This document shows, in pieces, positions 1 through 63,426 of a stretch of DNA of 64,000 bases. The position numbers were made by a program, and so were the translations under genes. Origin of the DNA: Pseudomonadota bacterium (GTDB lineage: Bacteria > Pseudomonadota > Gammaproteobacteria > Burkholderiales > Gallionellaceae); contig JAJXUI010000006.1 of the NCBI GenBank assembly GCA_021782995.1, positions 16,395-80,394 on the forward strand. Reading direction: 5' to 3'. The first letter of the stretch is position 1, and each line of letters starts with the position of its first letter. Under the pieces are notes generated by a model. The model saw only the letters and a program-made list of their open reading frames with translations. It ran no database searches and was not told the origin of the DNA.

Positions 1-56
1 GCACCCAATGTGCTGCACACAATTTGTGTTGGCCTGCACCGGAATACGCCAAAAAT

Positions 57-256
57 TAATCCACAAATTCTGTGGATAACTTTGTGGATTGTTTGCCAGT
101 AAGTTGATAAATACTTCTCCGGAAACCACTTTTTTTTATTGCTTAAATATTGAACTTTTAAAATAACACAATATAAACAAAAGGATAGAAATTTCATATG
201 GCATTGGTTGGGTATATTGCCCCGTAAGCCCCGCCAGTGTTGGACTCTGTGGATTA
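57..256. promoter_or_regulatory. DnaA-box cluster with adjacent A/T-rich tract (oriC-like, DnaA-titration or DnaA-controlled promoter region)
   Basis: TAATCCACA 57-65 (1 mismatch to TTATCCACA); TGTGGATAA 71-79 (perfect, opposite orientation); TGTGGATTG 83-91; TGTGGATTA 248-256. AATCCACAAA 59-68 and TTTGTGGATT 81-90 form a perfect inverted repeat. A/T-rich run about 129-200. Confidence 0.4.
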
Positions 257-473
257 AACGCGTTGTCAATACGTAATCAGTAATATTTTTAAAAAAAATT
301 TCATGGCAGTTTTGCGAAAAAAATTTCCTGAATCAAATCAGGAACAACATTTTCAATACAGAAAATTCACTGTTGAATTGTTGCAACACCCTGCAACATT
401 TTTCAAAACACGCACGGTGCGGTAAGCTTGCGCATTTCCCGCAAACCTCATTCACATTCATAAAAGAAAAACC

Positions 474-2138
474 ATGGCCCAATACGTAATGTCCATGCTC
501 CGCGTGAGCAAAATCGTTCCCCCCAAGCGTCAGATCATCAAAGACATCTCCTTAAGCTTCTTCCCCGGTGCAAAAATCGGTTTGCTGGGCCTGAATGGCT
601 CCGGTAAATCCACCGTACTCAAGATCATGGCCGGCGTGGACAAGGAATATGACGGCGAAGTGCAGCGCCTGCCCAACATCAAGGTGGGCTACCTGCCGCA
701 AGAGCCTCAGCTCGACCCGGAAAAAACCGTGAAGCAGGAAGTGGAGTCTGCGCTGGGTGAAGTGATGGAAGCGCAGTCCAAGCTCGATGCCGTATATGCC
801 GCCTATGCCGATGAAAATGCTGACTTTGATGCGCTGGCTGCCGAGCAGGCGCGGCTGGAAGCCATCATCGCCACCAGCGGCTCTGATTCCTCGCACCAGA
901 TGGAAGTGGCGGCGGATGCCTTAAGGTTGCCCGAATGGGACGCGCAGATCAAAAACCTCTCCGGTGGTGAAAAGCGCCGCGTTGCGCTGTGCAAACTGTT
1001 GCTGGAAAAGCCCGACATGCTGCTGCTGGACGAGCCCACCAACCACCTCGATGCCGAATCTGTCGAGTGGCTGGAGCAATTCCTTGTGCGCTTCCCCGGC
1101 ACCGTGGTGGCGGTAACGCACGACCGCTACTTCCTCGACAACGCCGCCGAATGGATACTGGAGCTGGACCGTGGCCACGGCATCCCGTGGAAGGGCAACT
1201 ACTCCGAATGGCTGGAGCAGAAGGAAGCGCGTCTGGAGCAGGAAAACAAACAGATCGACGCGCACATGAAAGCGATGAAGCAGGAGCTGGAATGGGTACG
1301 GCAAAACCCCAAGGCACGCCAGGCCAAATCCAAGGCGCGCTTGAATCGCTTTGAAGAACTCAACTCGCAGGAATACCAGAAGCGCAACGAGACCCAGGAA
1401 ATCTTCATCCCTGTGGGCGAGCGTCTGGGAAATGAAGTCATCGAATTCAACGGCGTCAGCAAAGCCTATGGCGACCGTCTGCTGATGGATAACTTCAGCT
1501 TCAAGATTCCCGCTGGCGCCATTGTCGGCATCATCGGCCCCAACGGCGCTGGTAAATCCACGCTGTTCCGCATGATTACCGGCAAGGAACAACCCGATAG
1601 CGGTGAAGTGAAAATCGGCCAGACCGTGAAAATCGCTTATGTCGACCAGTCACGCGACGCGCTGGAAGCCGACAAAAGCGTGTTCGACGCCATCTCCGGC
1701 GGCCACGATATTTTGACCGTGGGCAAATACGAAACCCCGGCCCGCGCCTACATCGGCCGCTTCAACTTCAAGGGCGCAGACCAGGCCAAGATCGTCGGCC
1801 AGCTCTCCGGTGGTGAGCGCGGGCGATTACATTTAGCGAAGACGCTGATCTCCGGCGGCAATGTGCTGCTGCTCGACGAACCCTCCAACGACCTCGATGT
1901 GGAAACCCTGCGCGCGCTGGAAGACGCGCTGCTGGAGTTTGCCGGCTGCGTCATGGTCATCTCGCACGACCGCTGGTTCCTCGACCGTATCGCCACCCAC
2001 ATCATCGCGGCAGAAGGCGATTCGAAGTGGACGTTCTTTGATGGCAACTATCAGGAATACGAGGCGGACAAGAAGAAGCGGCTGGGTGAGGAAGGGGCGA
2101 AGCCGAAACGGATTCGTTATAAGCCGATTAGTAGGTGA
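474..2138 (+). CDS. ettA: Energy-dependent translational throttle protein EttA (ABC-F ATPase)
   Basis: 554 aa. N-terminus MAQYVMSMLRVSKIVPPKRQIIKDISLSFFPGAKIGLLGLNGSGKST closely resembles E. coli EttA/YjjK. Two Walker A motifs (GLNGSGKS, GPNGAGKS), two LSGGE signatures, no TM domain. Confidence 0.95.
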   Translation: MAQYVMSMLRVSKIVPPKRQIIKDISLSFFPGAKIGLLGLNGSGKSTVLKIMAGVDKEYDGEVQRLPNIKVGYLPQEPQLDPEKTVKQEVESALGEVMEAQSKLDAVYAAYADENADFDALAAEQARLEAIIATSGSDSSHQMEVAADALRLPEWDAQIKNLSGGEKRRVALCKLLLEKPDMLLLDEPTNHLDAESVEWLEQFLVRFPGTVVAVTHDRYFLDNAAEWILELDRGHGIPWKGNYSEWLEQKEARLEQENKQIDAHMKAMKQELEWVRQNPKARQAKSKARLNRFEELNSQEYQKRNETQEIFIPVGERLGNEVIEFNGVSKAYGDRLLMDNFSFKIPAGAIVGIIGPNGAGKSTLFRMITGKEQPDSGEVKIGQTVKIAYVDQSRDALEADKSVFDAISGGHDILTVGKYETPARAYIGRFNFKGADQAKIVGQLSGGERGRLHLAKTLISGGNVLLLDEPSNDLDVETLRALEDALLEFAGCVMVISHDRWFLDRIATHIIAAEGDSKWTFFDGNYQEYEADKKKRLGEEGAKPKRIRYKPISR

Positions 2139-2246
2139 ATATCATAGAACCTGATTGGTCTAAACAAGACTGTTTCAGTTAAGTTTGTTACGTGCATGTT
2201 CTATGTTCGCACCAAATCTTCGAGTGTATTGTGGGAGAAATAAATA

Positions 2247-4229
2247 ATGGCAATAACTCCATTTGATGAATTCGATCCGTTATCTTTTAAATCATTAAGT
2301 ACATCGGAAGCCGCGACAAATGCGGTGAAGCGTGAAATCAAGAATATCTTGAGTTCCTATGTCGGTTGGTATGACCCATTCTGCGAGCTTATACAGAATG
2401 CGCTTGATTCGGTAGAGGCACGTGCAATAGAAGAAAAGCGCACAAAATCTGGTGAGGGATATAAGCCACGAATTGGCATCACGGTGAATATGCAGGCTAA
2501 TTGCCTGACCGTTACAGATAATGGCGTGGGTCTGAATAAGGATCAGTTTCAACAGTTCTTAGCCCCCAATTTTTCATTCAAATCTGGCAATACACGAGGG
2601 CATAAAGGGGTAGGAGCAACTTACGTCGCATATGGCTTTAATAAAATGCAGGTTGCCACAAAGACTGTGGGTTTTGAGACTGTTGGTCAGATTATTCGTG
2701 CAAGAACATGGCTTGACGACCCGGCGCCAAGCGGCAATCCAAAAGTCATTTTGGATGCCTCCGGTCCCGTGGACTTGGTCTTTAATGATATTGATCGTGG
2801 TGTGTCAATTACGGTTTTTTTTGATGAATTTACTCATCCAAAGCGGTTGGATTGGGTGCAGGCTTCTACAGCTGACTCCTGGTGGAAAATTCTCTCAATC
2901 AAGACTGGCTTGGGCGCAGTATTTCCTAATAGTGAGATACGGATAGAGTTGACCGTTATAGCGCCAGGCGGTACCAGTACGTCACTTGAAAAAAACGGTG
3001 TTGAGTACTATTGGATTTATCGGGACTATCCAAAGACGGCGCGTTTTAGGGAGATCAAGAAGACGGAGAAGGAATTATTTGAGAAACGCGGTGCGGGGTT
3101 TAGGCATCCGGATAAAATTTCCAACCTCGATCTTATTTACGAGCAGTGGTGTTCGGATGAACTTGAGGGGTTGCTTGGCAAGAGTCTAAATGAAGAAGAG
3201 CGCATTATATTGCGCGACTACAGGCCTACTGTTGGAGTGGAGTTTGGATATACCGCGAAATTGTGGCAGAAATTTAACGAAGATTTGGGTGTGCGATCTA
3301 ATTACCGCGTGATGACTACAGGTATTCAAATGGCGGCGAATAATATGCCCCAAGGCGAGCCGATCCAGATTCCGCTAACAAGAAATATTGGTCGACAAAA
3401 CCAAATTCATTTCTTGATTCACTTTGAAAATTACACGCCTGATTTGGGTCGTAAAGGATTTCATCGAGAGTTGAGTGATTTTGCCAAAGGTGTTGCTCGT
3501 CAAATAACCGAGAATCATTTGTCGCAAGTTCGGGCTCGATTGAAAGTTAATACAGGAGTTGCGCCGGATCTATTGCGTGAGCAACAGATTTCGGAATGGA
3601 AGAAAGATATGCTCTCTCATGAGCAATCCAGTCCGTTGCGAATCATGAATGACAATTTCTTCTTCCCTGTGCAGCGAGTTTCTATTACATCAACACCAAC
3701 ACGCGAGCAAGATGTAATTGCGCTATTTCATCAGCTGATTGCTGGTGGAATTGTTCGTGGTATTCAAGTGATGGCAACAAATGAGCGGCTCACATATGAC
3801 AGCTTATTTAAGATTGCATTTGATTTGGCACCTGAAAAATACATTTTCAATAAACAAACTAATCCGCTTGGTATATCAGAAGACGTAGCAAACCAGTTAA
3901 AGGGATTGGTTACAGAGCCAAAGGTACTTGAGTACAAATTCTCGCTTGATGGCTTGATTGAAGATGTGGAAAGCGGTGATAAAAATATTAAGGACATTAA
4001 TCTCACTGTCGTATGGAGTTCTGGTAATCAGTATCGTGAAAGGTATGGAATTAATTCTTTGCTACTATCTGAGAATCAGGATCAGAGATCATTTCATGGT
4101 GCAACCCATGTGCTAAGTGATTTGGAGTCCGGGGCAAAAATTATGGACCTTATTATTCTTGAGGAATTGATTGACTACCTAAATGATCAGGTTGGCTGTG
4201 AGGATAAGCAAAGGGTGAAATACGAATAG
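2247..4229 (+). CDS. GHKL (Bergerat-fold, MORC/paraMORC-like) ATPase with uncharacterised C-terminal half, possibly a PD-(D/E)xK-like module
   Basis: 660 aa. Motif I ELIQNALD (aa 47-54, nt 2385-2408), motif II DNGVG, motif III GHKGVG, in the same order as the HtpG in this window (ELISNASD / DNGIG / GQFGVG). Visibly AT-richer than flanking genes. C-terminal pattern E487 ... D ... E562-Y-K564. Confidence 0.75.
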   Translation: MAITPFDEFDPLSFKSLSTSEAATNAVKREIKNILSSYVGWYDPFCELIQNALDSVEARAIEEKRTKSGEGYKPRIGITVNMQANCLTVTDNGVGLNKDQFQQFLAPNFSFKSGNTRGHKGVGATYVAYGFNKMQVATKTVGFETVGQIIRARTWLDDPAPSGNPKVILDASGPVDLVFNDIDRGVSITVFFDEFTHPKRLDWVQASTADSWWKILSIKTGLGAVFPNSEIRIELTVIAPGGTSTSLEKNGVEYYWIYRDYPKTARFREIKKTEKELFEKRGAGFRHPDKISNLDLIYEQWCSDELEGLLGKSLNEEERIILRDYRPTVGVEFGYTAKLWQKFNEDLGVRSNYRVMTTGIQMAANNMPQGEPIQIPLTRNIGRQNQIHFLIHFENYTPDLGRKGFHRELSDFAKGVARQITENHLSQVRARLKVNTGVAPDLLREQQISEWKKDMLSHEQSSPLRIMNDNFFFPVQRVSITSTPTREQDVIALFHQLIAGGIVRGIQVMATNERLTYDSLFKIAFDLAPEKYIFNKQTNPLGISEDVANQLKGLVTEPKVLEYKFSLDGLIEDVESGDKNIKDINLTVVWSSGNQYRERYGINSLLLSENQDQRSFHGATHVLSDLESGAKIMDLIILEELIDYLNDQVGCEDKQRVKYE

Positions 4230-4246
4230 AAAATCTCACGAATCTC

Positions 4247-4361
4247 GGGTCAGCCGGACTCTAAGTTTTCTGGCATCAAGAATTTCGAGTCAACATGGGG
4301 GTCAGGCCTTAAATTTTACATAATTTAATTAATTGATTATATTGAATAATTTTAATTTAAG
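4247..4361 (+). repeat. Composite intergenic element: degenerate plus full GGGGTCAGG..TTAAATTTTACA box followed by an AT-rich TGAAT-core motif
   Basis: GGGTCAGCCGGACTCTAAGTTTTC 4247-4270. GGGGTCAGGCCTTAAATTTTACA 4298-4320 (22/23 identical to 5888-5910). TTGAATAATTTTA 4342-4354. Confidence 0.7.
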
Positions 4362-4427
4362 CTATCAGGTGCATGCCGCGTTTACTTCATTTTTCCCCGC
4401 ATCCATAAAGCTGTAAACACCAATCTC

Positions 4428-4456
4428 TTGACAATACTATCGCTATGCGACAGTAT
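4428..4456 (+). promoter_or_regulatory. Putative higBA promoter with overlapping operator palindrome
   Basis: TTGACA 4428-4433, 17-nt spacer, CAGTAT 4451-4456. Imperfect inverted repeat ATACTATCGC-TAT-GCGACAGTAT 4434-4456 (9 of 10 arm positions pair). Confidence 0.5.
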
Positions 4457-4467
4457 CAAGCTCCGTT

Positions 4468-4746
4468 ATCATAGATTTTCACGATGAAAAAACCCTGAAA
4501 GTCTGGCGCGGTGAATTTTCGCGGCGCTTGCCGAGCCAGATTCAGGAGTTGGCACGCCGCAAACTGCGTATGTTGCATAACGCGCAGAGAGTTGAAGATT
4601 TACGCATTCCGCCGAATAACCGTCTTGAAATGTTGAAAGGTAACCGCGCGGGTCAATGGAGCATCCGCATCAACGATCAATGGCGGGTGTGCTTTGTGTG
4701 GAATGACGGACAGGCCAGTCGCGTGGAAATCTGCGATTATCATTGA
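4468..4746 (+). CDS. higB: HigB-family (RelE/ParE superfamily) toxin; the full-length frame lacks a canonical start codon
   Basis: Frame open from 4432. IIDFHDEKTLKVWRGEFSRRLPSQIQELARRKLRMLHNAQRVEDLRIPPNNRLEMLKGNRAGQWSIRINDQWRVCFVWNDG..VEICDYH reads like a complete HigB. The first canonical start is TTG 4528 (72 aa, N-terminally truncated). ATC 4468 / ATA 4471 occupy the expected Met-Ile position. Confidence 0.8.
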   Translation: MIDFHDEKTLKVWRGEFSRRLPSQIQELARRKLRMLHNAQRVEDLRIPPNNRLEMLKGNRAGQWSIRINDQWRVCFVWNDGQASRVEICDYH

Positions 4747-4758
4747 GGAGTAAGTACC

Positions 4759-5067
4759 ATGGCTAAAACAACCAAACTGCGCAACATTCATCCCGGTGAA
4801 GTGCTGCGTGAGGAGTTTCTGGTGCCGCTTGGCATTTCGCAATACCGCTTGGCGAAGGAAATCGGGGTGACTGAGGCGCGCATTTCGGCGATCTGTTCCG
4901 GCAAACGTGCAATCACTGCGGATTCGGCGCTGCGTCTGGCGGCGTTTTTTGGCACGAGCAGTGGATTCTGGATGGGCTTGCAGGCAGATTACGACACAGA
5001 AGAGGCGGCCAAGGAGTTATCCAAGGAATTGGCACAGATCCAGCGTTTCGAGCCGATGGCGGCCTGA
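4759..5067 (+). CDS. higA: HigA-family antitoxin (XRE-type HTH)
   Basis: 102 aa. IHPGEVLREEFLVPLGISQYRLAKEIGVTEARISAICSGKRAITADSALRLAAFFGTS is the typical HigA HTH. Starts 12 nt after higB. Confidence 0.9.
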   Translation: MAKTTKLRNIHPGEVLREEFLVPLGISQYRLAKEIGVTEARISAICSGKRAITADSALRLAAFFGTSSGFWMGLQADYDTEEAAKELSKELAQIQRFEPMAA

Positions 5068-5145
5068 TGTCAGCACGCCTCCCGTGCTGCCTGGGGGGAT
5101 TGATGTAGTAACAATATGGGACGGACCGCGGTTTAATGTGCACTC

Positions 5146-5676
5146 ATGACTATCTCTGCAAACAATAAGCGCATCGTCATCATTGCTGGGCCGAATGGCG
5201 CTGGTAAAACAACCTTTGCTCGTGAGTTTTTGCCAACTGATGCGGAGCTTCCGAATTTTGTTAATGCGGATTTGATTGCTGCTGGTATATCGCCATTTGC
5301 ACCAGAGCTGGCGGCATTCAAAGCGGGCAGGTTGATGTTGGAGACGATAGATGATTATGTGAGACGCGGCGAAAGTTTTTCCTTCGAGACGACGCTATCC
5401 GGTTTGACCTATGCGCAGATGATTCCGGTGTGGCGGACATCTGGTTATGCGGTGAAACTGATTTTCCTTTCTTTGCCGGATGTTGAGATGGCAATCGAGC
5501 GTGTGGCGATACGCGTCAGGCAGGGCGGCCATAATATCCCCGAAGATGTAATTCGGCGCAGATATGCACATGGCCGTGGAAATTTCGAGCGTTACAAGTT
5601 GCTGGTAGATGGCTGGCAGTTATACGATAATTCACAGACACCTCCATTTCTTTTAGACGAGGGGATGAATAAATGA
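5146..5676 (+). CDS. Zeta-toxin-like small P-loop kinase/ATPase (COG4185-type)
   Basis: 176 aa. Walker A GPNGAGKTT near the N-terminus. Size and layout match zeta/AAA_33-type small kinases. Confidence 0.7.
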   Translation: MTISANNKRIVIIAGPNGAGKTTFAREFLPTDAELPNFVNADLIAAGISPFAPELAAFKAGRLMLETIDDYVRRGESFSFETTLSGLTYAQMIPVWRTSGYAVKLIFLSLPDVEMAIERVAIRVRQGGHNIPEDVIRRRYAHGRGNFERYKLLVDGWQLYDNSQTPPFLLDEGMNK

Positions 5677-5828
5677 AAGTACCTGTTTCCAAACTGAATG
5701 ATCCCGACCTGCAAAAGGTTCCACAGGCCTTGATGCGTGCTGCTGAAAAGGCTCGCCAGCTTGCTGAACAGACTGGTACACCATTTGTTACACGCCCAGT
5801 GGGAACTACTGAAAAGAAAGCCAAGTAA
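5673..5828 (+). CDS. Small 51-codon ORF translationally coupled to the zeta-like gene; candidate cognate antitoxin
   Basis: ATG 5673-5675 overlaps stop TGA 5674-5676 (ATGA). Product MKVPVSKLNDPDLQKVPQALMRAAEKARQLAEQTGTPFVTRPVGTTEKKAK. Below the 60-aa cut-off of the supplied ORF track. Confidence 0.5.
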   Translation: MKVPVSKLNDPDLQKVPQALMRAAEKARQLAEQTGTPFVTRPVGTTEKKAK

Positions 5829-5857
5829 ATTCTGGCTTGATCCTGACAAGCACCGTG

Positions 5858-5935
5858 AGGTTCAGCCCTTACATTTGACAAAATCTTGGGGTCAGGTCTT
5901 AAATTTTACACGTCACAACATATTGAATTAATTAA
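5858..5935 (+). repeat. Composite intergenic element (second copy): degenerate plus full GGGGTCAGG box followed by a TGAAT-core AT-rich motif
   Basis: GGTTCAGCCCTTACATTTGACA 5858-5880. GGGGTCAGGTCTTAAATTTTACA 5888-5910. TTGAATTAATTAA 5923-5935. Confidence 0.7.
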
Positions 5936-6063
5936 ATAATATATTCATTTAAATATATGGGCTCAGATCAGATTCGATATTCATCAAAAAAACTTCTAGC
6001 TCAATAGATTAGATAAGTGGCTCAACACACAGCTAACCTCAAAAATAAATTCATTCCTAGAAA

Positions 6064-6993
6064 TTGATCATGATCAAACGTCCCAATAAGTGGCTTGCGC
6101 TTATCTTAGGAGTTTTCACTCCACCGCTCAGTCTCGTCTATGTGGCGCAACCGGCATGGGCGGTATTTTATTTTGTGCTCTTGATGGGGCTGGGTGTTAT
6201 CGGCTTTTTCTATGAGCATGTTTATCCGATTCTCATACTGATAAGCCTGATTACTTTTTATCTTGCATGCGGTATTCATTCTTTTAGACTTGCCAAAGCT
6301 TATCTTGTAGATAAGATCAGGCCGCACTACAGCCGCTGGTATGGCTTGCTTGCAATCTATCTGGCATTTTTTGTGATTGTTTTTCTTTTTCGCTCATTCG
6401 GTTTTGAGCCTTTCAGGCAAGCATCGAGTTCCATGTTGCCAAGTATTGAGCACAGAGCAATCCTGGTTGTGCGGAAGTGGGGTTATGGTCATTACGGTTC
6501 ATACGGGTTTGTTCCATTTCACAGATCAATTTCAGCTGAAATGCAAAGAGGGGATGTGATTGTTTTTGATTATCCTGAAAATAAATCCGTTCAGTACATC
6601 AAGCGACTGATTGGGTTGCCGGGTGACCGGGTTGAATACAGGGACAAGCAAATTAGTGTCAATGGCGTGAGCATCGCTAGAATCAAGGAGGGCGAGTATA
6701 TGGCCAACCTGGGTGGCGAATTTGAAAAGCTGACGCGGTATCAGGAAACGCTGGATGGCAAGCCTTATGACGTGGTGGTGGATGAGAGTATTGGCAGGCC
6801 GATTTTGCCCGATTCGAGTTCATTTAAATTCAAGGAAAATTGCTCGTTTAATGGTAGTGACCTGAGCTGTCTGGTACCGGAAAATCACTATTTTGTGTTG
6901 GGTGATAATCGGGATAACAGCAGAGATAGCCGTTATTGGGGATTTGTGCCTGAAAAGAATGTTGTCGGGGTAGTGTGGAAAACGTTCAAGTGA
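6064..6993 (+). CDS. lepB: Signal peptidase I (S26 family) paralog with extended polytopic N-terminal region
   Basis: Catalytic Ser box SSSMLPS, Lys box YIKRLIGLPGD, C-terminal GDNRDNSRDSRYWGFVP. About 110 aa of hydrophobic helices precede the catalytic domain. AT-rich gene. The ATG at 6070 is an alternative start. Confidence 0.85.
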   Translation: MIMIKRPNKWLALILGVFTPPLSLVYVAQPAWAVFYFVLLMGLGVIGFFYEHVYPILILISLITFYLACGIHSFRLAKAYLVDKIRPHYSRWYGLLAIYLAFFVIVFLFRSFGFEPFRQASSSMLPSIEHRAILVVRKWGYGHYGSYGFVPFHRSISAEMQRGDVIVFDYPENKSVQYIKRLIGLPGDRVEYRDKQISVNGVSIARIKEGEYMANLGGEFEKLTRYQETLDGKPYDVVVDESIGRPILPDSSSFKFKENCSFNGSDLSCLVPENHYFVLGDNRDNSRDSRYWGFVPEKNVVGVVWKTFK

Positions 6994-7120
6994 TTTTGTG
7001 TAGAAGATTTAATCTTTAACAGGAAAACATGGGATCAAATTTCATTGATCCAACCGGATTCGAGTGTTGACTTCGAGGAATTAAATGGGTCCGCATAGCT
7101 TAACTTGTTACAGTACCAGA

Positions 7121-7831
7121 ATGAAAAATTTCATCTCCTTCCTCTTTCTCATCCTGCTTGTTTTAGGCTCGTTTACTGTGTCTGCTTCAGAACCTGCAGT
7201 GATCTATTGGAGCTCGGATGCGGGCAAGGCGTTGCGCGCCAGAATCAAGCCTGATGCAGACTACTGGCAGCTCATTCCCTGGTTCACAAATCAGATCAAC
7301 CAGTCTTATTGCGGGGTGGCCAGCGCGGTGACAGTGCTGAATGCGATGCCGATCAAGAAGCCGGTTGATCCCATCTATGCGCCGTTTGCCTATTTCACCC
7401 AGAGCAATTTCTTTACGCCTGAGGTGGCGAAGGTCATCGGCCCGCAGACTGTACGCAATCAAGGCATGACCCGCGACGAGATGGTGGAGACGTTAACGCA
7501 ACTTGGCGTGAAGGCGACGACGGTGGCGGGGGATGAAGTGGATGAGCCTGCGCTGCGTTCTCTTGTGCAGAAGGCGATGGGCGACGACGGGCAGTTTGTG
7601 CTGGTTAATTTTTTGCGCAGGTCACTAGGCCAGCCCGGCGGGGGGCATTGGTCGGTGTTGGCGGCTTATGATGCGCAAGCGGATCGTGTGCTGATCCTCG
7701 ATGTGTCGAAGTATATGTATGAGCCCGAGTGGGTTACCATCCCTACACTTCTTAAAGCGATAAACACGCTGGATGCCGAAAGCAACCGGGCGCGTGGTTT
7801 GGTGTTCGTATCGCAACAGGGCGGCAAATGA
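7121..7831 (+). CDS. Periplasmic phytochelatin-synthase-like (papain-fold, C83) protein, copy 1
   Basis: Signal peptide MKNFISFLFLILLVLGSFTVSASEP. YCGVASAVTVLNAM (Cys), GGGHWSVLAAYD (His), LILDV (Asp). The ORF-track start 7085 is probably over-extended. Confidence 0.8.
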   Translation: MKNFISFLFLILLVLGSFTVSASEPAVIYWSSDAGKALRARIKPDADYWQLIPWFTNQINQSYCGVASAVTVLNAMPIKKPVDPIYAPFAYFTQSNFFTPEVAKVIGPQTVRNQGMTRDEMVETLTQLGVKATTVAGDEVDEPALRSLVQKAMGDDGQFVLVNFLRRSLGQPGGGHWSVLAAYDAQADRVLILDVSKYMYEPEWVTIPTLLKAINTLDAESNRARGLVFVSQQGGK

Positions 7832-7927
7832 ATGTGGTGGACATAATCCAGTTGTAATTGTTGGATAATATAAAAATGCGTCAGACTGGATTGATTTCAC
7901 TCTTGACCATCAAGTCAATCGATTAAC

Positions 7928-9163
7928 ATGACCATGTCGCTAGATCAAATCAAACTAAAACTAAACCAGCTGGGCTGGATTAAATATGCCGGCTTGCTGG
8001 TGTTGGCTTTGCTAGCCTGGTGGCTGGTTCAATACTGGCTGGGCCCCAAGGTGCCGGGGTATGTTGTGACCAGGGGTGAACTGATTCAAACCGTGGTGGC
8101 GAGCGGGCGGGTTGAGTCGCCTGCGCGGGTGGAAATTTCCAGCAAGATTACCGGCAAAGTGGTGTCTATCCCCGTGGCCGATGGGCAGAAGGTAAAGGCC
8201 GGGCAAACGCTGATTGAGATGGAAAAGGGTGATGAACGCGCCACGCTGGCACAGGCCCGGGCTGCGGTGGCACAGGCGGAGGCACGCTTGCAGCAAATCA
8301 GGGAGTTGACCCAGCCGGTGACCGAGCAAACATTGAAGCAGGCGAAAACCACGCTGGATATTGCCAGCAAGCAATATGCCAGAAACAAGGAATTATCCGC
8401 GCAGGGGTATGTGAGCCAGGCACAGCTGGATGACGCTTTGCGCAGTCTGGATATTGCAAAAAGCCAGTTGGCGAGTGCGGAGCTGCAGGTGCAGTCTTAC
8501 AAGAAAGAGGGCAGTGATTATGCCTTGGCTGAGGCGGCGTTGAATCAGGCGCGTGCGAATGAGCATGTGGCATTGGCCAGGCTGGGCAATACGGTGATCA
8601 AGGCGGTGTCGGATGGTGTTTTGATTTCACGCGCGGTGGAGCAGGGCAATGTGGTGATGCCGGGTAAAACATTGATGGTGATGTCGCCGGCTGGCAAAAC
8701 GCAATTGATCGTGCAGATAGATGAAAAAAATATGCGTTACCTGAAGCTGGGCCAGCATGCGCTGGTGGTGGCAGATGCGTATCCCGGACTGCGCTTTGAT
8801 GCGGTGCTGGCGTATATCAACCCGGGGGTGGATGCCACGCGCGGTTCGGTGGAAACCAAGCTCGATGTGCCTGCCCCGCCGGATTTTTTGCGGCAGGACA
8901 TGACGGTGTCGGTGGATATTGAGGTGGCAAGGCGTGCCGATGCACTTACCCTTTCGATGGCGGCCATCCGTGATGGCGCAGGCGCAGAACCCTGGGTGAT
9001 GGTGCTGGATAACGGGCGCATTAAACACCGCAAGGTGAAGCTGGGTGTGCGGGGAGATAGCAGGGTGGAAATTCTCGATGGGCTGCGCGAGGGTGATTGG
9101 GTGTTGCCTGCAATCAGTTTGCCCTACAAGGAAGGCAAGCGCCTTCGCATTGTTGCCCCCTGA
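7928..9163 (+). CDS. HlyD/MacA-type periplasmic adaptor (membrane fusion protein)
   Basis: 411 aa. N-terminal TM, long coiled-coil (AQARAAVAQAEARLQQ...), beta-barrel C-terminus. Immediately upstream of the FtsX-type permease and ABC ATPase. Confidence 0.85.
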   Translation: MTMSLDQIKLKLNQLGWIKYAGLLVLALLAWWLVQYWLGPKVPGYVVTRGELIQTVVASGRVESPARVEISSKITGKVVSIPVADGQKVKAGQTLIEMEKGDERATLAQARAAVAQAEARLQQIRELTQPVTEQTLKQAKTTLDIASKQYARNKELSAQGYVSQAQLDDALRSLDIAKSQLASAELQVQSYKKEGSDYALAEAALNQARANEHVALARLGNTVIKAVSDGVLISRAVEQGNVVMPGKTLMVMSPAGKTQLIVQIDEKNMRYLKLGQHALVVADAYPGLRFDAVLAYINPGVDATRGSVETKLDVPAPPDFLRQDMTVSVDIEVARRADALTLSMAAIRDGAGAEPWVMVLDNGRIKHRKVKLGVRGDSRVEILDGLREGDWVLPAISLPYKEGKRLRIVAP

Positions 9164-9189
9164 GGCCGCATAAAAATAAGGATAAAATT

Positions 9190-10419
9190 GTGAACAGGTT
9201 CGTTCCCTTTGAGTGGATAGCCGCAATTCGATTTTTGCGCGAGGGGCGTTTGCAGACTTTGTTCATCATCTCGGGTGTGGCGATTGGCGTTGGGGTGATT
9301 GTTTTTATGTCTGCCTTGCTGAGCGGGCTGCAGGCGAATCTGTTTTATCGGATCATGAGTTCGCAACCGCACATTACGCTGGAGCGCCCCAAGCAGGTGG
9401 TTACGTCTGTGCGGCAAGCCGAGCCGGGGCAGCAAATTGTTGAATCGGTGCAGAAGCCACCGCAGCGTGTCAGCTCGGTGGACCAATGGCAGAAGGTGCG
9501 TGACCTGATGCGCTCGCGCAACGATGTGCTGGCGGTTTCACCCACTGTTACCGGGCCTGCATTTGTGGTGAGGGGCAGCTCCAATCAGGCAATTTCACTC
9601 ACGGGAATTGATGTTGAGCAATACATCAAGATTGTGCCGCTGCCCGATAAAATGGTTGCCGGCACCTATCGCTTGACCAGTAACGACATCATCATCGGCA
9701 CGCAGCTGGCCGAAGACATGGGCATGCAACTGGGTGACAAGTTACGCGTGGCCACGGCGGAAGGGGCAAGCCGCACGCTGACGATAGTCGGAATTTTTGA
9801 TTTTGGTAACCGCAGCGCCAACCAGCGCACCACCTTTGTGCTGCTTTCGACCGCCCAGAATTTGCTCAATCTGCCGGGTAGTGTCACCAGTATCGATATG
9901 ACAGTTAAAGACCCCTATGCGGCCGAGACGATCGCTCAATCCATTGCCAGTGAAACAGGTTTGAATGCCTTGAGCTGGATAGCCAATAACAGCCAGTTTT
10001 TTCAGGGGATGAATGCGCAAACGATGTCCAGCATGTTGATACGGATTTTTGTGGGTTTGTCGGTGGCCGCAGGTATTGCCAGCGTGTTGGTGGTGTCTGT
10101 GGTGCAGCGGCAAAAAGATATTGGCATTTTGCGCGCGATGGGTGGTTCACGTGGGCAGGTGATGCGCGTGTTTCTGCTTCAGGGGGCGGTGGTAGGTTTG
10201 CTGGGTTCGATGATGGGGTCTTTACTGGGATTTTTGTTGTTGATGGCATGGCGCCTTGTGGCAAAAAATCCGGATGGCAGTGTGATGTTTGTCATCACGA
10301 TGGAGCCTGAACTTTTCATGTATTCCGCACTGGTTGCTACGCTAACCGGCCTTGTGGCTGCGGTGACACCGGCGGTGCGTGCGGCACGCCTGGACCCTGT
10401 GGTGGCGATTCGTGGTTAG
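9190..10419 (+). CDS. ABC transporter permease, FtsX/LolC-E/MacB-type
   Basis: GTG 9190 preceded by [25 protein letters not shown]... is a typical N-terminus. One TM, a large periplasmic domain, then three C-terminal TMs (FtsX fold). Confidence 0.85.
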
Positions 10420-11095
10420 CGCGGTTTTACAACTGCAAGCGGTGCGCAAATCCTATGCGGTGGGTACACCGGTAGAAACCGAAGTGTTGCACGGCATCGA
10501 CATGCAGTTGAACAAAGGTGAGTTTGTTGCGCTGATCGGCCCCTCGGGTTCCGGTAAAAGCACCTTGCTCAATATCATGGGTTTGCTTGATCGCCCCACT
10601 CGCGGAAAATTGTTGATCAAGGATCAGGACACCAGCGCAATGGATGAATCACAACTGACCCAGTTGCGCGGTCAGGCCATCGGTTTCGTGTTTCAAACGC
10701 ATTTGTTGTTGACTGCCTTTACCGCACTTGAGAATGTGATGATGCCGCTGCTGTTGCAGCGCGGCCGCCCCGACGAAGCGATGAAGTCGCGAGCGGCTTC
10801 GCTGCTGGAGCAGGTTGGTCTGGCGCAGTGGCAAAACAATCTGGTCAACAATATGTCTGGCGGCCAGCAGCAGCGCGTGGCCATTGCCCGCGCACTTGCC
10901 CTGAACCCTTCATTGATACTCGCCGACGAGCCCACTGGCAACCTGGATACAAAATCTGCCGATGCGGTATTTGAACTGATGCGCAAAGTCAATCAGGATA
11001 GCGGAACAACTTTTTTGATGGTGACGCATAACGTGGGGATGGCGAGCCGATGTGATCGTGTTTTGAATCTGGTGGATGGAATTATTCTGGCTTAG
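10412..11095 (+). CDS. ABC transporter ATP-binding protein (LolD/MacB-type)
   Basis: GPSGSGKST Walker [16 protein letters not shown] signature, [11 protein letters not shown] Walker B. GTG 10412 overlaps the permease stop (10417-10419). Confidence 0.9.
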
Positions 11096-11366
11096 TACGA
11101 GCCTTAACATCAGGCATAAAGGCAAGGTGCCATTGCATTCTCCGCCATCGATGAAGGTTGTTACATCCGGCCCAGTCAGCTTCCTTCGAGAAATAAACCT
11201 TGCTATTGCGCTGGGTATCATGCATAGTGCGTATAGCGATTCTCAAGCATGTATTCGTAGTCTGGTTTTGTACACGCGTTCCGCGTATATCACTTTCCTC
11301 TTGTCGTCTTGACCTTCGTCCCTTGCGGGGAGGTTTCCCCATTGTTTTTTTCAGGAGTATCAAGAT

Positions 11367-11570
11367 ATGGCAACAGGTAGTGTCAAGTGGTTCAACGATG
11401 CAAAGGGCTTTGGCTTCATCACCCCGGCTGACGGGGGCGCTGATCTCTTCGCGCATTTTTCCGCAATCCAGAATTCAGGTTTCAAGAGTCTGATTGAAGG
11501 TCAGCAGGTCAGTTTTGATGTGACCACCGGCCCCAAAGGGTTGCAGGCATCGAATATCCGCGCAGCGTAA
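11367..11570 (+). CDS. cspA: Cold-shock protein, CspA family
   Basis: 67 aa. [17 protein letters not shown] (RNP1) and DLFAHFSAI (RNP2). About 270 nt of untranslated sequence lies upstream. Confidence 0.95.
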
Positions 11571-11617
11571 CCGGACTGGCAGGACTGCTCAGCCAGTCTG
11601 CAGGTCTACCGGAAAAG

Positions 11618-11644
11618 CCCGGCATTGCCGGGTTTTTTCTTTTC
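11618..11644 (+). terminator. Rho-independent terminator after cspA
   Basis: CCCGGC-ATT-GCCGGG hairpin followed by TTTTTTCTTTT. Confidence 0.75.
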
Positions 11645-11663
11645 AACTTAAGGAGATTTAATC

Positions 11664-11921
11664 ATGGCCAAGGAAGAACTGCTGGAAATGAGTGGAATGG
11701 TGAATGAAGTGCTGCCTGACTCGCGTTTCCGCGTGACGCTGGAAAACGGGCACGTTATCGTGGCCTATACTGCCGGCAAAATGCGCAAGAACCACATCCG
11801 CATCATCGCCGGCGATAAGGTTTCGCTGGAACTTTCGCCCTATGATTTGAGCAAGGGTCGTATTACCTTCCGTCATATTGAAGGCCGCCCATTCGTGGCA
11901 CAACAACGCCGCCGATTCTGA
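11664..11921 (+). CDS. infA: Translation initiation factor IF-1 paralog with short C-terminal extension
   Basis: [71 protein letters not shown] matches IF-1 end to end. 85 aa versus about 72 aa for typical IF-1. Confidence 0.9.
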
Positions 11922-12654
11922 TTTTTGGCGGGTCCCGGTGAGATCCATTCTCGCCATCGCAATAGTATATGATCCGGAATGCGTAGGGGACATCGCGCCT
12001 ATCCGTTTTCGCTCATCCACGATGTCAGGCCGATTTTCAATCAAGTGCCAACTGGCTATCTGGTCTCCTCTTTCTAGCTTGCCATAGCGCTTGCGACGCT
12101 TCCTCTGGCAGCATGGTTGCTCCGACAATATGCCACCTCAGGTCGTCTGCATGGACAGGCTGGAATACTGATTCCGGGCTGATTTCAGCATGCCCACTGA
12201 ATTGCTCTGGTCTCGATTCCTGCAACAGCATTTTCTCGGAAAATTGCGAGCTTGCTTCATCTCTCCTGAGTTATTCATCGCACGGTGACTACAGCCATGA
12301 GTGGGCCTGTTCAGGCACATCGCCACACTTCCCGCAGTGCCTTGCCAGTTCCCGGCTCATCGTCGCACTGCGCCTGCTCTGTTCAATCATTCAGCAATTC
12401 CTGCCTGCTTATGTCCTGCTTTCAATCATGTGTAAATCTGGTATCGTTCTTCTCGGGTTAGGGGAGTGTACATTTTGCAATTTCGACTGGCTGGGCAATC
12501 AGGCAGGAAGCTAACGGTTCCTAAACGCTTGTCACTGCATTTACAAATTTGCACTTCACACTGGAATTTGCCATGGATATGAAAGGTATGGTACTTGAAG
12601 AACGGACTTTTGCCCTCACGGTTGTTTGCGGTTGAATGGTATTTGAAAGCGCGG

Positions 12655-61487: not shown

Positions 61488-61521
61488 GCGTGCGTTGATT
61501 GAAATAACCACGGAGAACAAC

Positions 61522-63426
61522 ATGAGCGATACTTCTACAAATAACCGCGAGACCATGGGATTTCAGACAGAGGTCAAACAGCTTCTGCACCTGATGATCC
61601 ACTCCCTGTATTCCAACCGCGAAATCTTCCTGCGCGAACTGATTTCCAATGCCTCCGACGCCTGCGACAAGCTGCGCTTTGAGGCACTGCACAATGCCGC
61701 CCTGTTCGAGAATGACTCCGAGCTGAAAATCAGCGTGGACTACGACAAGGGCGCACGTACGCTGACCATCAGCGACAACGGCATCGGCATGAGTCGCGAG
61801 GAAGTGATCAGCAACCTCGGCACCATCGCCAAATCCGGCACCCGCGAATTTTTCTCGAAACTTTCCGGTGACCAGCAGAAAGATGCCAACCTGATCGGCC
61901 AGTTTGGCGTGGGTTTCTACTCTGCATTCATTGTGGCCGACAGGGTCACCGTACTAACCCGTCGTGCCGGTGAGAAGACAGATCAGGGCGTACGCTGGGA
62001 GTCTGAAGGCGCTGGGGAGTTTTCAATTGAAATGACCGAGAAACAGGATCGCGGTACGCAGATTACCCTGCATCTGCGCGAAGAGCAGGATGACTTGCTG
62101 TCCGGATCCCGCCTGCGCGGCATCATCCATAAATACTCCGATCATATCGTGCAGCCGGTGGTAATGAAGAAGGAAGAGTGGAAAGAGGGTGGGCAGGAGA
62201 AGCTGGATGAAGACGAAACCGTCAATCAGGCCGTGGCCATCTGGGCGCGTGCCAAAAATGAAATCAATGACGATGAGTACAAGGCTTTCTACAAGCATGT
62301 AGGCCATGATTTCGAGGACCCGCTGACCTGGGTGCATGCCCGCGTGGAAGGCCGCCAGGAGTATGCCCAGCTGTTGTATGTGCCGGGCCGCGCACCATTC
62401 GACATGTGGGATCGTGAAGCCATGCATGGCGTCAAGCTCTATGTGCGCCGAGTATTCATCATGGATGATGCAGCACAATTGATGCCGCACTACCTGCGTT
62501 TCATCCGCGGCGTGGTCGATTCCAGCAATCTGCCGTTGAACGTATCGCGTGAAATCCTGCAGGAGTCTAAGGATATAGAGGCGATCCGTGCCGGTTGCAC
62601 GAAGAAGGTGCTGGGCATGCTGGAGGACCTTGCAAAAAATGACACCGAAAAATATTCAAAATTCTGGAAAGAGTTCGGCAAGGTGCTGAAAGAGGGCGTG
62701 GGAGAGGATTTTGCCAACAAGGAAAAAATTGCCGGCCTGCTGCGGATCGCTTCCACCCATGCCGATACCGATGCTCAGGTGGTATCGCTGGCAGACTATA
62801 TCGGTCGCATGAAGGATGGCCAGGACAAGATTTACTACATTACGGCCGATACCTTTAATGCAGCAAAGAACAGCCCGCATCTGGAGGTGTTCCGCAAGAA
62901 AGGCATCGAGGTATTGCTGCTGACAGATCGAGTGGATGAATGGGTAGTCAGCAACCTTGCGGAATTCCAGGGCAAGAAGCTCGTTTCCGTGGCCAAGGGT
63001 GGACTGGACTTGGGCTCGCTGGAAGATGAAACCGAGAAAAAAGAGCAGGCCAGGGAGGCGGATGATTTCAAGGAGCTGACCGACAAGATCAAGACCAGCC
63101 TGCAGGATAAAGTGAAGGAAGTGCGAGTCACGCACCGCTTGACCGATTCCCCGGCATGTCTGGTGGCGGATGAGCATGACATGAATGCCAATCTGGCCCG
63201 ATTGCTGAAGGCCTCCGGCCAGAGTGTGCCGATGTCACAGCCTATCCTTGAAATCAATCCGCGCCATCCGGTTGTAATGCGACTGAAATATGAAGAACAG
63301 AAATTTGATGAATGGACCGCAGTGCTGTTCGATCAGGCCTTGCTGGCGGAAGGTGGCCAGCTGGATGACCCGGCAAGTTTTGTGAAACGCATCAACCAGC
63401 TGATGCTGGAAATGTCTGGCAAATAG
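61522..63426 (+). CDS. htpG: Molecular chaperone HtpG (Hsp90)
   Basis: [59 protein letters not shown]. Full Hsp90 length. Confidence 0.95.

What the first reader, a model, noticed from the sequence alone, without database searches (positions are those of the whole stretch)
2247..4229. Solo GHKL ATPase with possible C-terminal PD-(D/E)xK module: candidate single-gene defence protein
The N-terminal ~130 aa carry the three Bergerat-fold motifs in canonical order: ExxxNAxD = ELIQNALD, DxGxG = DNGVG, GxxGxG = GHKGVG. The genuine Hsp90 in this window has the same order. The remaining ~500 aa match nothing I recognise. Residues ~485-565 (nt ~3700-3945) show a helix Glu (REQDVIALF), then Asp-containing strands (TYDSLF, IAFD), then LEYK. 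That arrangement is compatible with a restriction-endonuclease-like core, but with a longer D-to-ExK spacing than usual. Prokaryotic MORC/paraMORC GHKL ATPases are known from restriction-like defence loci, and this gene sits next to TA modules in an AT-rich islet. It has no partner gene, which would be unusual.
Basis: inference. Interest (0 to 1): 0.7.

Follow-up and report, generated by a model that had tools for sequence, protein, structure and literature searches.

The report
Solo GHKL ATPase–nuclease-like defence candidate
This gene encodes a stand-alone, horizontally acquired protein that joins an Hsp90/MORC-type ATPase to a probable DNA-cutting module; it belongs to a widespread but uncharacterised family built like a recently proven single-gene anti-phage protein (VcSduA), so it is a credible new defence candidate rather than a housekeeping gene.

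Summary
Residues ~43-200 are a GHKL ATPase. Its catalytic motifs are invariant in 56 relatives down to 23% identity. The C-terminal ~180 aa match nothing in Pfam, PDB or Foldseek. They do show the helix-strand order of a restriction-endonuclease core, and E487, D518, E562 and K564 are invariant in 56/56 relatives. The family is large (421 clusters at 50% identity), spans many bacterial phyla and one archaeon, and always has this architecture. No partner gene is conserved in 82 loci. The gene sits either between housekeeping genes or in restriction-modification, toxin-antitoxin or mobile-element islands. Here its GC is 43% against 54% for the window. The closest known system is VcSduA/paraMORC3, a single-gene anti-phage protein with the same layout. 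Profile comparison links the two only through the GHKL domain, the RecB-type QxxxY motif is absent, and none of 543 published VcSduA hits carries this family's peptides. Verdict: a distinct, uncharacterised variant of a known kind. Nuclease activity and defence function are inferred, not shown.

The parts
2233..2238 (+). Shine-Dalgarno-like GGGAGA, 8 nt before the ATG
   Evidence: read from the sequence
2247..4229 (+). complete gene, 660 aa plus stop; GHKL ATPase, middle domain and C-terminal E-D-ExK module
2247..2372 (+). N-terminal arm (residues 1-42) with family-invariant residues (F6, D10-P11-L12, R29, N33-Y38, G40-W41); candidate dimerisation strap by analogy with other GHKL ATPases (inference)
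   Evidence: invariant columns in A1; helix 21-36 in the model
2373..2846 (+). GHKL (Bergerat-fold) ATPase domain, residues ~43-200. Motif I ELIQNALD is at nt 2385-2408, motif II DNGVG at 2517-2531, motif III GHKGVG at 2598-2615
   Evidence: Pfam HATPase_c 8.4e-5; hhalign to VcSduA GHKL Prob 90.9 and to the window's HtpG Prob 96.9; motif residues 55-56/56 invariant
2847..3656 (+). middle domain, residues ~201-470, resembling Hsp90-M or the GyrB transducer. Contains the near-invariant PDLGRKGF loop (nt 3438-3461; K403 in 55/56)
   Evidence: Foldseek of the full model: Hsp90 N+M over ~430 columns at E 7.5e-14; GyrB 43K, ParE and TopoVI-B at ~1e-11; conservation
3678..4226 (+). C-terminal module, residues 478-660: putative PD-(D/E)xK-type nuclease core followed by a further conserved alpha/beta sub-region (W590, R614, T620-H621)
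   Evidence: AF2 model pLDDT 89 with order H487-499, E506-509, E519-524, insert, E559-566, H567-576, E584-591; invariance; found only in this architecture
3705..3707 (+). E487 codon: invariant Glu at the start of the first helix of the module
   Evidence: 56/56
3795..3800 (+). Y517-D518 codons: invariant Asp at the start of the second strand
   Evidence: 56/56
3930..3938 (+). E562-Y-K564 codons: invariant ExK in the third strand
   Evidence: E and K 56/56
4247..4271 (+). weak terminator-like hairpin and T-rich tail 18 nt after the stop codon
   Evidence: consensus scan only

Best explanation
The gene encodes a stand-alone, horizontally mobile ATP-regulated nuclease of the GHKL class. By analogy with all studied GHKL+transducer proteins, ATP binding would close an N-terminal dimer gate. 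The middle domains would then form a clamp that holds a substrate, most likely DNA. That nucleotide-dependent change would licence the C-terminal E487/D518/E562-x-K564 site to cut the bound DNA. The most likely biological role is restriction of invading DNA (phage or plasmid) by a single polypeptide. That is the function demonstrated for the architecturally parallel VcSduA/paraMORC3 protein. What is shown: the GHKL identity, the Hsp90-M/transducer-like middle domain, strict conservation of both putative active sites, solo genomic status, patchy multi-phylum distribution and foreign GC content. What is inferred: dimerisation, DNA as the substrate, nuclease chemistry, coupling between the ATPase and the nuclease, and the defence phenotype.
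Against: There is no significant structural or sequence match of the C-terminal module to any nuclease: Foldseek best E is 0.48 against PDB and 0.022 against BFVD, and PDB profile searches return only noise. Only one of the five AF2 models of the isolated module was confident (89 against 49-73). I could not inspect coordinates to confirm that the four residues converge. The 44-residue D-to-ExK spacing is long for this fold. Many copies lie between ordinary housekeeping genes with no defence neighbours. Defence-island enrichment was not tested against a proper background. No experimental data exist for any member.
Confidence: 0.6

Rival explanations
1. The C-terminal module is not a nuclease. 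It would be a dimerisation, ligand-binding or client-binding domain, and the protein would be an accessory Hsp90-like chaperone or signalling ATPase. The invariant charged residues would then serve structure or binding.
For: Foldseek and profile searches give no nuclease match. The family profile aligns collinearly with HtpG over ~490 columns, and Hsp90 also ends in a dimerisation domain. NCBIfam's best hits are HSP90-family models. Gu et al. speculate that Hsp90-like N-terminal domains may sense misfolded proteins.
Against: An absolutely invariant E...D...ExK pattern on exactly the helix and strand positions of the PD-(D/E)xK core is hard to explain by structural roles alone. HtpG model scores are 25.9-31.7 bits against cut-offs of 371-455. 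The genome already has a genuine HtpG. The sporadic distribution and low GC fit an accessory conflict gene, not a chaperone.
Confidence: 0.15
2. It is an ATP-dependent nuclease that works in DNA repair, recombination or chromosome maintenance rather than in defence. This would be a MutL-like or topoisomerase-like role that some lineages acquired horizontally.
For: MutL has the same logic of GHKL, transducer and C-terminal endonuclease. Several copies sit next to DNA-metabolism or housekeeping genes: polA, dnaE/glnS, DbpA helicase, gyrA. Iyer et al. consider recruitment of stand-alone paraMORC3 to non-RM functions.
Against: The MutL endonuclease motif DQHAxxExxxxE is absent, and NCBIfam gives no MutL hit. 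The distribution is extremely patchy: 156 matching stretches in a collection of 185,579 species genomes. No repair partner is conserved. The gene has foreign GC. It recurs next to RM, Abi, TA and mobile-element genes.
Confidence: 0.12
3. It is the same thing as VcSduA: a divergent but true member of the DUF4263 Shedu (type I-D) / paraMORC3 family, and so already known.
For: The domain order and size are the same (660 against 673 aa). The GHKL domains align at Prob 90.9, E 1.1e-6. Pfam and PADLOC fail to recognise even VcSduA itself, so their silence on this protein proves nothing. The non-significant hhalign alignment is motif-consistent.
Against: hhalign probabilities for the C-terminal modules are 0.3-1.3% and for the middle domains 0.2-0.6%. 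The VcSduA family has invariant Q575...Y579 (RecB motif IV), and this is absent in 0/56 members here. The D-to-ExK spacing is 28 against 44 residues. The family's signature peptides occur 0 times among the 543 published VcSduA hits.
Confidence: 0.1

Closest known systems
VcSduA of Vibrio cholerae (Shedu type I-D; 'paraMORC3'-type GHKL-nuclease), PMC12137116
   Same: Both are single polypeptides of ~660-673 aa that work without a partner gene. Both have an N-terminal GHKL ATPase with all motifs, an Hsp90/MORC/topo-II-like middle domain and a C-terminal module with E...D...ExK. Both are sporadic and horizontally spread. The GHKL domains are detectably homologous (hhalign Prob 90.9).
   Different: The middle and C-terminal domains are not detectably homologous (Prob <=1.3%). 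This family lacks the QxxxY motif IV. Its D-to-ExK spacing is 44 residues against 28. Its GHKL signature differs: FCELIQNALD/RGHKGVGAT against PxFEAxxNSI/GCRGVGR. It is not among the 543 published hits. No phenotype is known for it.
paraMORC families of Iyer, Abhiman & Aravind 2008 (PMC2292703)
   Same: Both have GHKL followed by a transducer-type domain and a family-specific C-terminal extension. Both have a patchy, laterally mobile distribution and occasional linkage to Dcm, Vsr, AIPR and helicase RM-type clusters. The described stand-alone subset with an E-D-ExK C-terminal domain matches this family's behaviour.
   Different: paraMORC3's nuclease domain was linked to RecB nucleases, which fits VcSduA (QxxxY present) better than this family (QxxxY absent).
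Hsp90/HtpG
   Same: This is the best sequence and structural neighbour of the N-terminal ~430 residues.
   Different: Scores are far below the HtpG model cut-offs. The C-terminus differs. The genome has its own HtpG at 61495..63426. The family is accessory and patchy.
MutL and type II topoisomerase ATPase subunits (GyrB/ParE/TopoVI-B)
   Same: They share the GHKL+transducer ATP-gated clamp coupled to DNA cleavage, with Foldseek E ~1e-11.
   Different: There is no MutL endonuclease motif, no Toprim domain, no conserved partner subunit and no housekeeping distribution.
Tiamat (TmtA) single-gene defence system (PADLOC models; its single-gene nature is from my own recollection of Millman et al. 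2022 and was not checked here)
   Same: These are the only PADLOC models hit by the family, through the GHKL region (E 0.053 for the window protein; 1.3e-5 and 4e-7 for relatives).
   Different: The match covers only ~75 residues of models 1063-1782 positions long. The rest of TmtA has no counterpart here.

Membership tests
GHKL (Bergerat-fold) ATPase superfamily | Motif I ExxxNxxD, motif II DxGxG and motif III GxxGxG in order | tested here: met
   ELIQNALD 47-54, DNGVG 91-95, GHKGVG 118-123; 55-56/56 invariant across the family
GHKL (Bergerat-fold) ATPase superfamily | Significant profile or structural similarity to known GHKL domains | tested here: met
   hhalign to HtpG Prob 96.9, E 1.7e-10; Foldseek to Hsp90, GyrB and TopoVI-B at E 1e-11 to 7.5e-14. 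Pfam HATPase_c alone is sub-threshold (23.4 against 26.4 bits)
Hsp90/HtpG chaperone | Full-length match to HtpG/HSP90 equivalog models above the curated cut-off | tested here: not met
   NF003555 25.9 bits against 371; NF010683 31.7 against 455. The matches cover residues 47-106 only
MORC/paraMORC (Iyer et al. 2008) | GHKL domain followed by an S5-fold (transducer) domain | tested here: inconclusive
   Foldseek aligns ~430-500 columns to Hsp90 N+M and to GyrB 43K, which includes the transducer. The S5 fold was not resolved separately. The middle-domain profile has no Pfam hit
MORC/paraMORC (Iyer et al. 2008) | Assignment to one of the named families paraMORC1-5 by sequence | not testable with these tools
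   The paper's alignments are not held
Shedu (DUF4263) type I-D / VcSduA family | C-terminal domain homologous to DUF4263 (PF14082 or PADLOC SduA models) | tested here: inconclusive
   No hit for the window protein or for 10 relatives. The same tools also fail on VcSduA itself, so the negative does not discriminate
Shedu (DUF4263) type I-D / VcSduA family | Profile-profile similarity of the nuclease module to the VcSduA-family nuclease module | tested here: not met
   hhalign Prob 0.3% and 1.3%, E 0.04 with a two-branch 19-sequence profile
Shedu (DUF4263) type I-D / VcSduA family | Nuclease motif IV (Q...Y after the ExK strand), invariant in the VcSduA family | tested here: not met
   Q575 and Y579 are 19/19 in the VcSduA family. 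QxxxY occurs in 0/56 members here
Shedu (DUF4263) type I-D / VcSduA family | Recovered by the published VcSduA HMM (543 hits) | tested here: not met
   Signature peptides GHKGVG, ELIQNA and RGHKGVGAT have 0 occurrences in the published table, which holds the first ~400 aa of each hit
PD-(D/E)xK nuclease superfamily | Core alpha-beta-beta-beta-alpha-beta order, with E on helix 1, D at the start of strand 2 and (D/E)xK on strand 3 | tested here: met
   AF2 secondary structure H487-499, E506-509, E519-524, E559-566, H567-576, E584-591; E487, D518, E562 and K564 are 56/56
PD-(D/E)xK nuclease superfamily | Significant structural similarity to a known member | tested here: not met
   Foldseek best E is 0.48 (PDB) and 0.022 (BFVD). 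PD-(D/E)xK proteins appear only among non-significant hits
PD-(D/E)xK nuclease superfamily | Metal-dependent nuclease activity | not testable with these tools
   Requires biochemistry
MutL | C-terminal endonuclease motif DQHAxxExxxxE, or a MutL model hit | tested here: not met
   The motif is absent, and there is no MutL model among the NCBIfam hits
Tiamat (TmtA) | Full-length match to the TmtA models | tested here: not met
   E 0.053 and 8.9 bits over residues 47-123 only, against a model of 1782 positions

The most novel reading that the evidence does not exclude
This family is a previously uncatalogued single-gene anti-phage or anti-plasmid system. It would have arisen independently of GHKL-Shedu by fusing an Hsp90-like ATP clamp to a new branch of the PD-(D/E)xK fold (E-D-ExK with a 34-residue insert and no QxxxY motif). 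Defence annotation tools miss it entirely. It may use the chaperone-like clamp to sense a phage protein or a DNA structure before unleashing the nuclease.
Probability: 0.4. Interest if true: 0.7.

Novelty: new variant of a known kind. Interest (0 to 1): 0.5.

Why it matters
If this is a working defence protein, it adds a widespread family to the short list of one-gene immune systems. The family has 421 clusters at 50% identity and members in at least nine bacterial phyla and a haloarchaeon. It would also show that the combination of a GHKL ATP clamp and a restriction-type nuclease was assembled more than once. Neither PADLOC nor Pfam flags this family, and neither flags the validated VcSduA family either. 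Defence censuses therefore undercount this whole architectural class. The strictly invariant residues E47/N51 and D518/E562/K564 give ready-made mutants. The Hsp90-like clamp raises a testable question about what such ATPases sense.

Tried and rejected
- **Conserved partner gene.** BLAST clustering of all ORFs within 6 kb in 82 loci, plus a Pfam census of 149 immediate neighbours, found none.
- **Zeta-toxin-like gene as partner.** It is directly downstream in only 3/82 loci, and its similarity does not track GHKL similarity. Rejected.
- **Pfam DUF4263 and PADLOC SduA as membership tests.** Both were negative, but the positive control VcSduA is negative too. I discarded these as uninformative.
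- **PDB sequence searches.** I tried the protein, a narrow C-terminal profile, a broad C-terminal profile and the VcSduA profile. All gave noise or nothing.
- **Foldseek of the isolated C-terminal model.** Nothing significant against PDB or BFVD.
- **PHROGs.** No hit for the C-terminus.
- **Rfam on 1900-7300.** Nothing.
- **tRNA as an integration site.** None in 1-12000.
- **K403 as the Hsp90 middle-domain catalytic Arg.** The low-confidence hhalign alignment does not support this, so I do not claim it.
- **Published VcSduA homologue table.** The journal version was truncated in storage. The preprint version held it, but with only the first ~400 residues per protein.
- **paraMORC alignments of Iyer 2008.** Not held.
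- **Independent contig L090 as a test of the TA block insertion.** It has the same arrangement as the window, so it tells nothing.
- **Phage carriage.** Only 3 loci in 2.9 million viral contigs.
Full report
**Observation**

A GGGAGA ribosome-binding site lies 8 nt upstream. A weak terminator-like hairpin lies 18 nt downstream. All quoted peptides sit at the quoted residues. The gene starts 108 nt after an ABC-F (EttA-like) gene. A HigB-like/HigA pair, a Zeta-toxin-like gene with a 51-aa ORF, an S26 signal-peptidase-like gene and a phytochelatin-synthase-like gene follow it. Gene GC is 0.429, against 0.579 for the upstream gene and 0.541 for the rest of the window. The window also carries a bona fide HtpG at 61495..63426.

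**N-terminal two thirds**

- Pfam HATPase_c and HATPase_c_3 hit residues 46-146 just below their curated cut-offs.
- NCBIfam's best hits are HSP90-family, HtpG and sacsin N-terminal models, all far below threshold.
- An AlphaFold2 model built from 42 homologues is confident (pLDDT 82).
- That model matches Hsp90 N+middle domains over ~430 columns (E 7.5e-14). It also matches GyrB 43K, ParE and TopoVI-B at E ~1e-11.
- A 56-sequence family profile aligns to the window's own HtpG with hhalign probability 96.9%.

So residues ~43-200 are a GHKL ATPase.

Across 56 full-length relatives, down to 23% identity and including a haloarchaeal plasmid copy, the ATP-site residues are conserved as follows:

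| Residues | Conservation |
|---|---|
| E47, N51, D54, G93, G118, K120, G121, G123 | 56/56 |
| D91 | 55/56 |
| K403, in a PDLGRKGF loop of the middle domain | 55/56 |

I could not establish that K403 corresponds to the transducer Lys or Arg that senses the gamma-phosphate in other GHKL enzymes.

**C-terminal third**

Residues 478-660 have no hit in any of these searches:

- Pfam, even at E<=10.
- PHROGs.
- PDB sequences, with a narrow or a broad profile.
- Foldseek with a separate, confident model (pLDDT 89 for the best model, but 49-73 for the other four). The best E was 0.48 against PDB and 0.022 against BFVD.

Three things do support it:

1. The predicted element order is helix 487-499, strand 506-509, strand 519-524, a 34-residue insert, strand 559-566, helix 567-576, strand 584-591. 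That is the alpha-beta-beta-beta-alpha-beta core of PD-(D/E)xK enzymes.
2. E487 (start of the helix), Y517-D518 (start of strand 2) and E562-x-K564 (strand 3) are identical in 56/56 sequences. K579 and W590 are essentially invariant too.
3. The non-significant Foldseek hits with the highest TM-scores include several PD-(D/E)xK proteins.

An exhaustive search of 1.84 billion cluster representatives with the C-terminal profile found 421 proteins at E<=1e-3. Every full-length hit listed is 628-771 aa and has the module at its C-terminus. The module therefore exists only in this architecture.

**Family and context**

The family has more than 1,100 clusters at 90% identity. Sources annotate it only as 'ATP-binding protein' or 'hypothetical'. 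Members are 44-68% identical across Pseudomonadota, Acidobacteriota, Actinomycetota, Bacillota, Bacteroidota, Cyanobacteria, Chloroflexota, Patescibacteria and Verrucomicrobiota. A disrupted copy lies on a Halobacterium plasmid. Only 3 of 2.9 million viral contigs carry the family.

I analysed 82 non-redundant loci for a conserved neighbour.

- No neighbour is conserved. The most frequent neighbour cluster occurs in 7 loci and at varying positions.
- Only 14/76 upstream and 21/75 downstream neighbours are co-oriented within 100 nt.
- A Pfam census of 149 immediate neighbours is heterogeneous. It mixes housekeeping genes (GlnS, S12, GyrA, PanB) with AIPR, AbiH, DpnII, DNA methylases, ResIII helicases, resolvases, integrase, transposases, Zeta toxins and HTH regulators.

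Individual contexts fall into two groups.

| Context type | Examples |
|---|---|
| Clean single-gene insertion between housekeeping genes | Sphingomonas LM7, Acidovorax sp. 94, Undibacterium |

C5-methyltransferase genes lie within 10 kb in 6/82 loci and Vsr genes in 7/82. That is a minority, but it is more than 1.4 Mb of random genome should contain. I did not compute that background. The Zeta-like gene is directly downstream in 3/82 loci only, and its similarity does not track GHKL similarity. It is not a partner.

**Comparison with the known**

Iyer, Abhiman and Aravind (2008) defined the prokaryotic MORC and paraMORC GHKL families. They noted that paraMORC3 carries a C-terminal restriction-endonuclease-fold domain with E-D-ExK motifs. 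They also noted that a subset occurs as stand-alone genes with no conserved neighbourhood.

In 2025, VcSduA of V. cholerae was shown to protect against T1-like phages and vibriophage X29 as a single gene. It has a GHKL domain, an Hsp90/MORC-like middle domain and a DUF4263 PD-(D/E)xK domain, and it is classed as Shedu type I-D and as paraMORC3-like. Its E27A and K557A mutants are inactive.

I tested membership directly.

- I recovered the first 400 aa of VcSduA and the published list of 543 homologues from the preprint supplement. None of the 543 contains this family's signature peptides.
- I fetched full-length VcSduA-family proteins from two divergent branches.
- Controls showed that Pfam and PADLOC detect neither DUF4263 nor SduA in VcSduA itself. 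My negative results for the window protein are therefore uninformative, and I do not use them.
- hhalign links the two families through the GHKL domain only (Prob 90.9).
- Middle domains score 0.2-0.6% probability and C-terminal modules 0.3-1.3%.
- The one C-terminal alignment that hhalign offers is not significant. It does pair D518 with D527, and E562/K564 with E555/K557.
- The VcSduA family has invariant Q575...Y579, the RecB-type motif IV. No member of this family has QxxxY after the ExK strand.
- The D-to-ExK spacing is 44 residues here against 28 in VcSduA.

The window protein works like VcSduA on paper, but it is not a demonstrable member of that family. Whether it is one of Iyer's other paraMORC families cannot be decided, because their alignments are not held.

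I excluded three other families. HtpG scores are far below cut-off. The MutL endonuclease motif is absent. Tiamat TmtA matches only ~75 residues of the GHKL domain.

**Mechanism**

The best-supported reading is an ATP-gated clamp coupled to a nuclease.

- ATP binding at the invariant Bergerat site, with the conserved N-terminal arm, would dimerise the GHKL domains.
- The middle domains would form a cavity for DNA.
- The nucleotide state would control cutting at the E487/D518/E562/K564 site.
- The result would be restriction of incoming DNA by one polypeptide.

The domain identities, the invariance of both sites, the solo status, the mobility and the foreign composition are shown. Dimerisation, the substrate, the chemistry, the coupling and the phenotype are inferred by analogy with GHKL enzymes in general and VcSduA in particular. 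I put this at 0.6.

The rivals are:

- a non-nuclease C-terminus on an accessory Hsp90-like ATPase (0.15);
- a repair or maintenance nuclease (0.12);
- true but undetectably divergent membership of DUF4263 Shedu (0.10).

**Novelty and score**

The architectural class is known and has been validated once. This family is a separate, uncharacterised lineage with an orphan nuclease-like module. Current defence-annotation resources do not see it, and I found no publication describing it. I rate it a new variant of a known kind, with interest 0.5. It is a solid and testable defence candidate, not a categorical surprise.

Noticed in passing
window 4298-4320 and 5888-5910 (degenerate third copy 5858-5880; similar AT-rich tails 4339-4356 / 5920-5937): A 23-nt near-perfect direct repeat, GGGGTCAGG(C/T)CTTAAATTTTACA, brackets the ~1.6-kb block holding HigB/HigA, the Zeta-toxin-like gene and a 51-aa ORF. 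It occurs only twice in the 64-kb window, with 0 expected by chance. This suggests the TA block is a separate insertion, or a duplicated att-like site, just downstream of the GHKL gene.
   Followed up: partly
window 4465-4746: The HigB-like ORF starts at a TTG (4528), and its Pfam match begins at profile position 22 of 91. The in-frame upstream codons read ...IIDFHDEKTLKVW..., a typical HigB N-terminus, but there is no ATG, GTG or TTG before them. The toxin either uses a non-canonical start or is decaying, while HigA (4759..5067) is intact.
   Followed up: no
window 5146-5828; L005 12030-12679; L065 11310-11894: A Zeta-toxin/AAA_33-like kinase gene of 166-194 aa lies directly downstream of the GHKL gene in 3 of 82 loci. 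In two of them an overlapping 51-57-aa ORF of unknown function follows it. The small downstream ORF could be its antitoxin. This arrangement differs from the classical epsilon/zeta order.
   Followed up: partly
L086 3983-5974 (Halobacterium sp. DL1 plasmid CP007061.1): This is an archaeal copy of the family, split by a stop or frameshift into 387 + 272 aa. It keeps all invariant residues and lies next to a C5 cytosine methyltransferase. The record annotates only a 335-aa fragment.
   Followed up: partly
P0279-P0398 (VcSduA family): Pfam-A (2025 copy) and PADLOC-DB v2.0.0 detect neither DUF4263 nor SduA in the experimentally validated VcSduA, or in its relatives. GHKL-type Shedu proteins are therefore invisible to these standard annotation libraries.
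   Followed up: yes
[not shown]
   Followed up: partly
window 6064-7831: An S26 signal-peptidase-like gene with an unusually long, hydrophobic N-terminal ~95 aa (GC 0.448) and a phytochelatin-synthase-like (PF05023) secreted protein follow the TA block. The peptidase shares the islet's low GC and may belong to the same acquired region.
   Followed up: no
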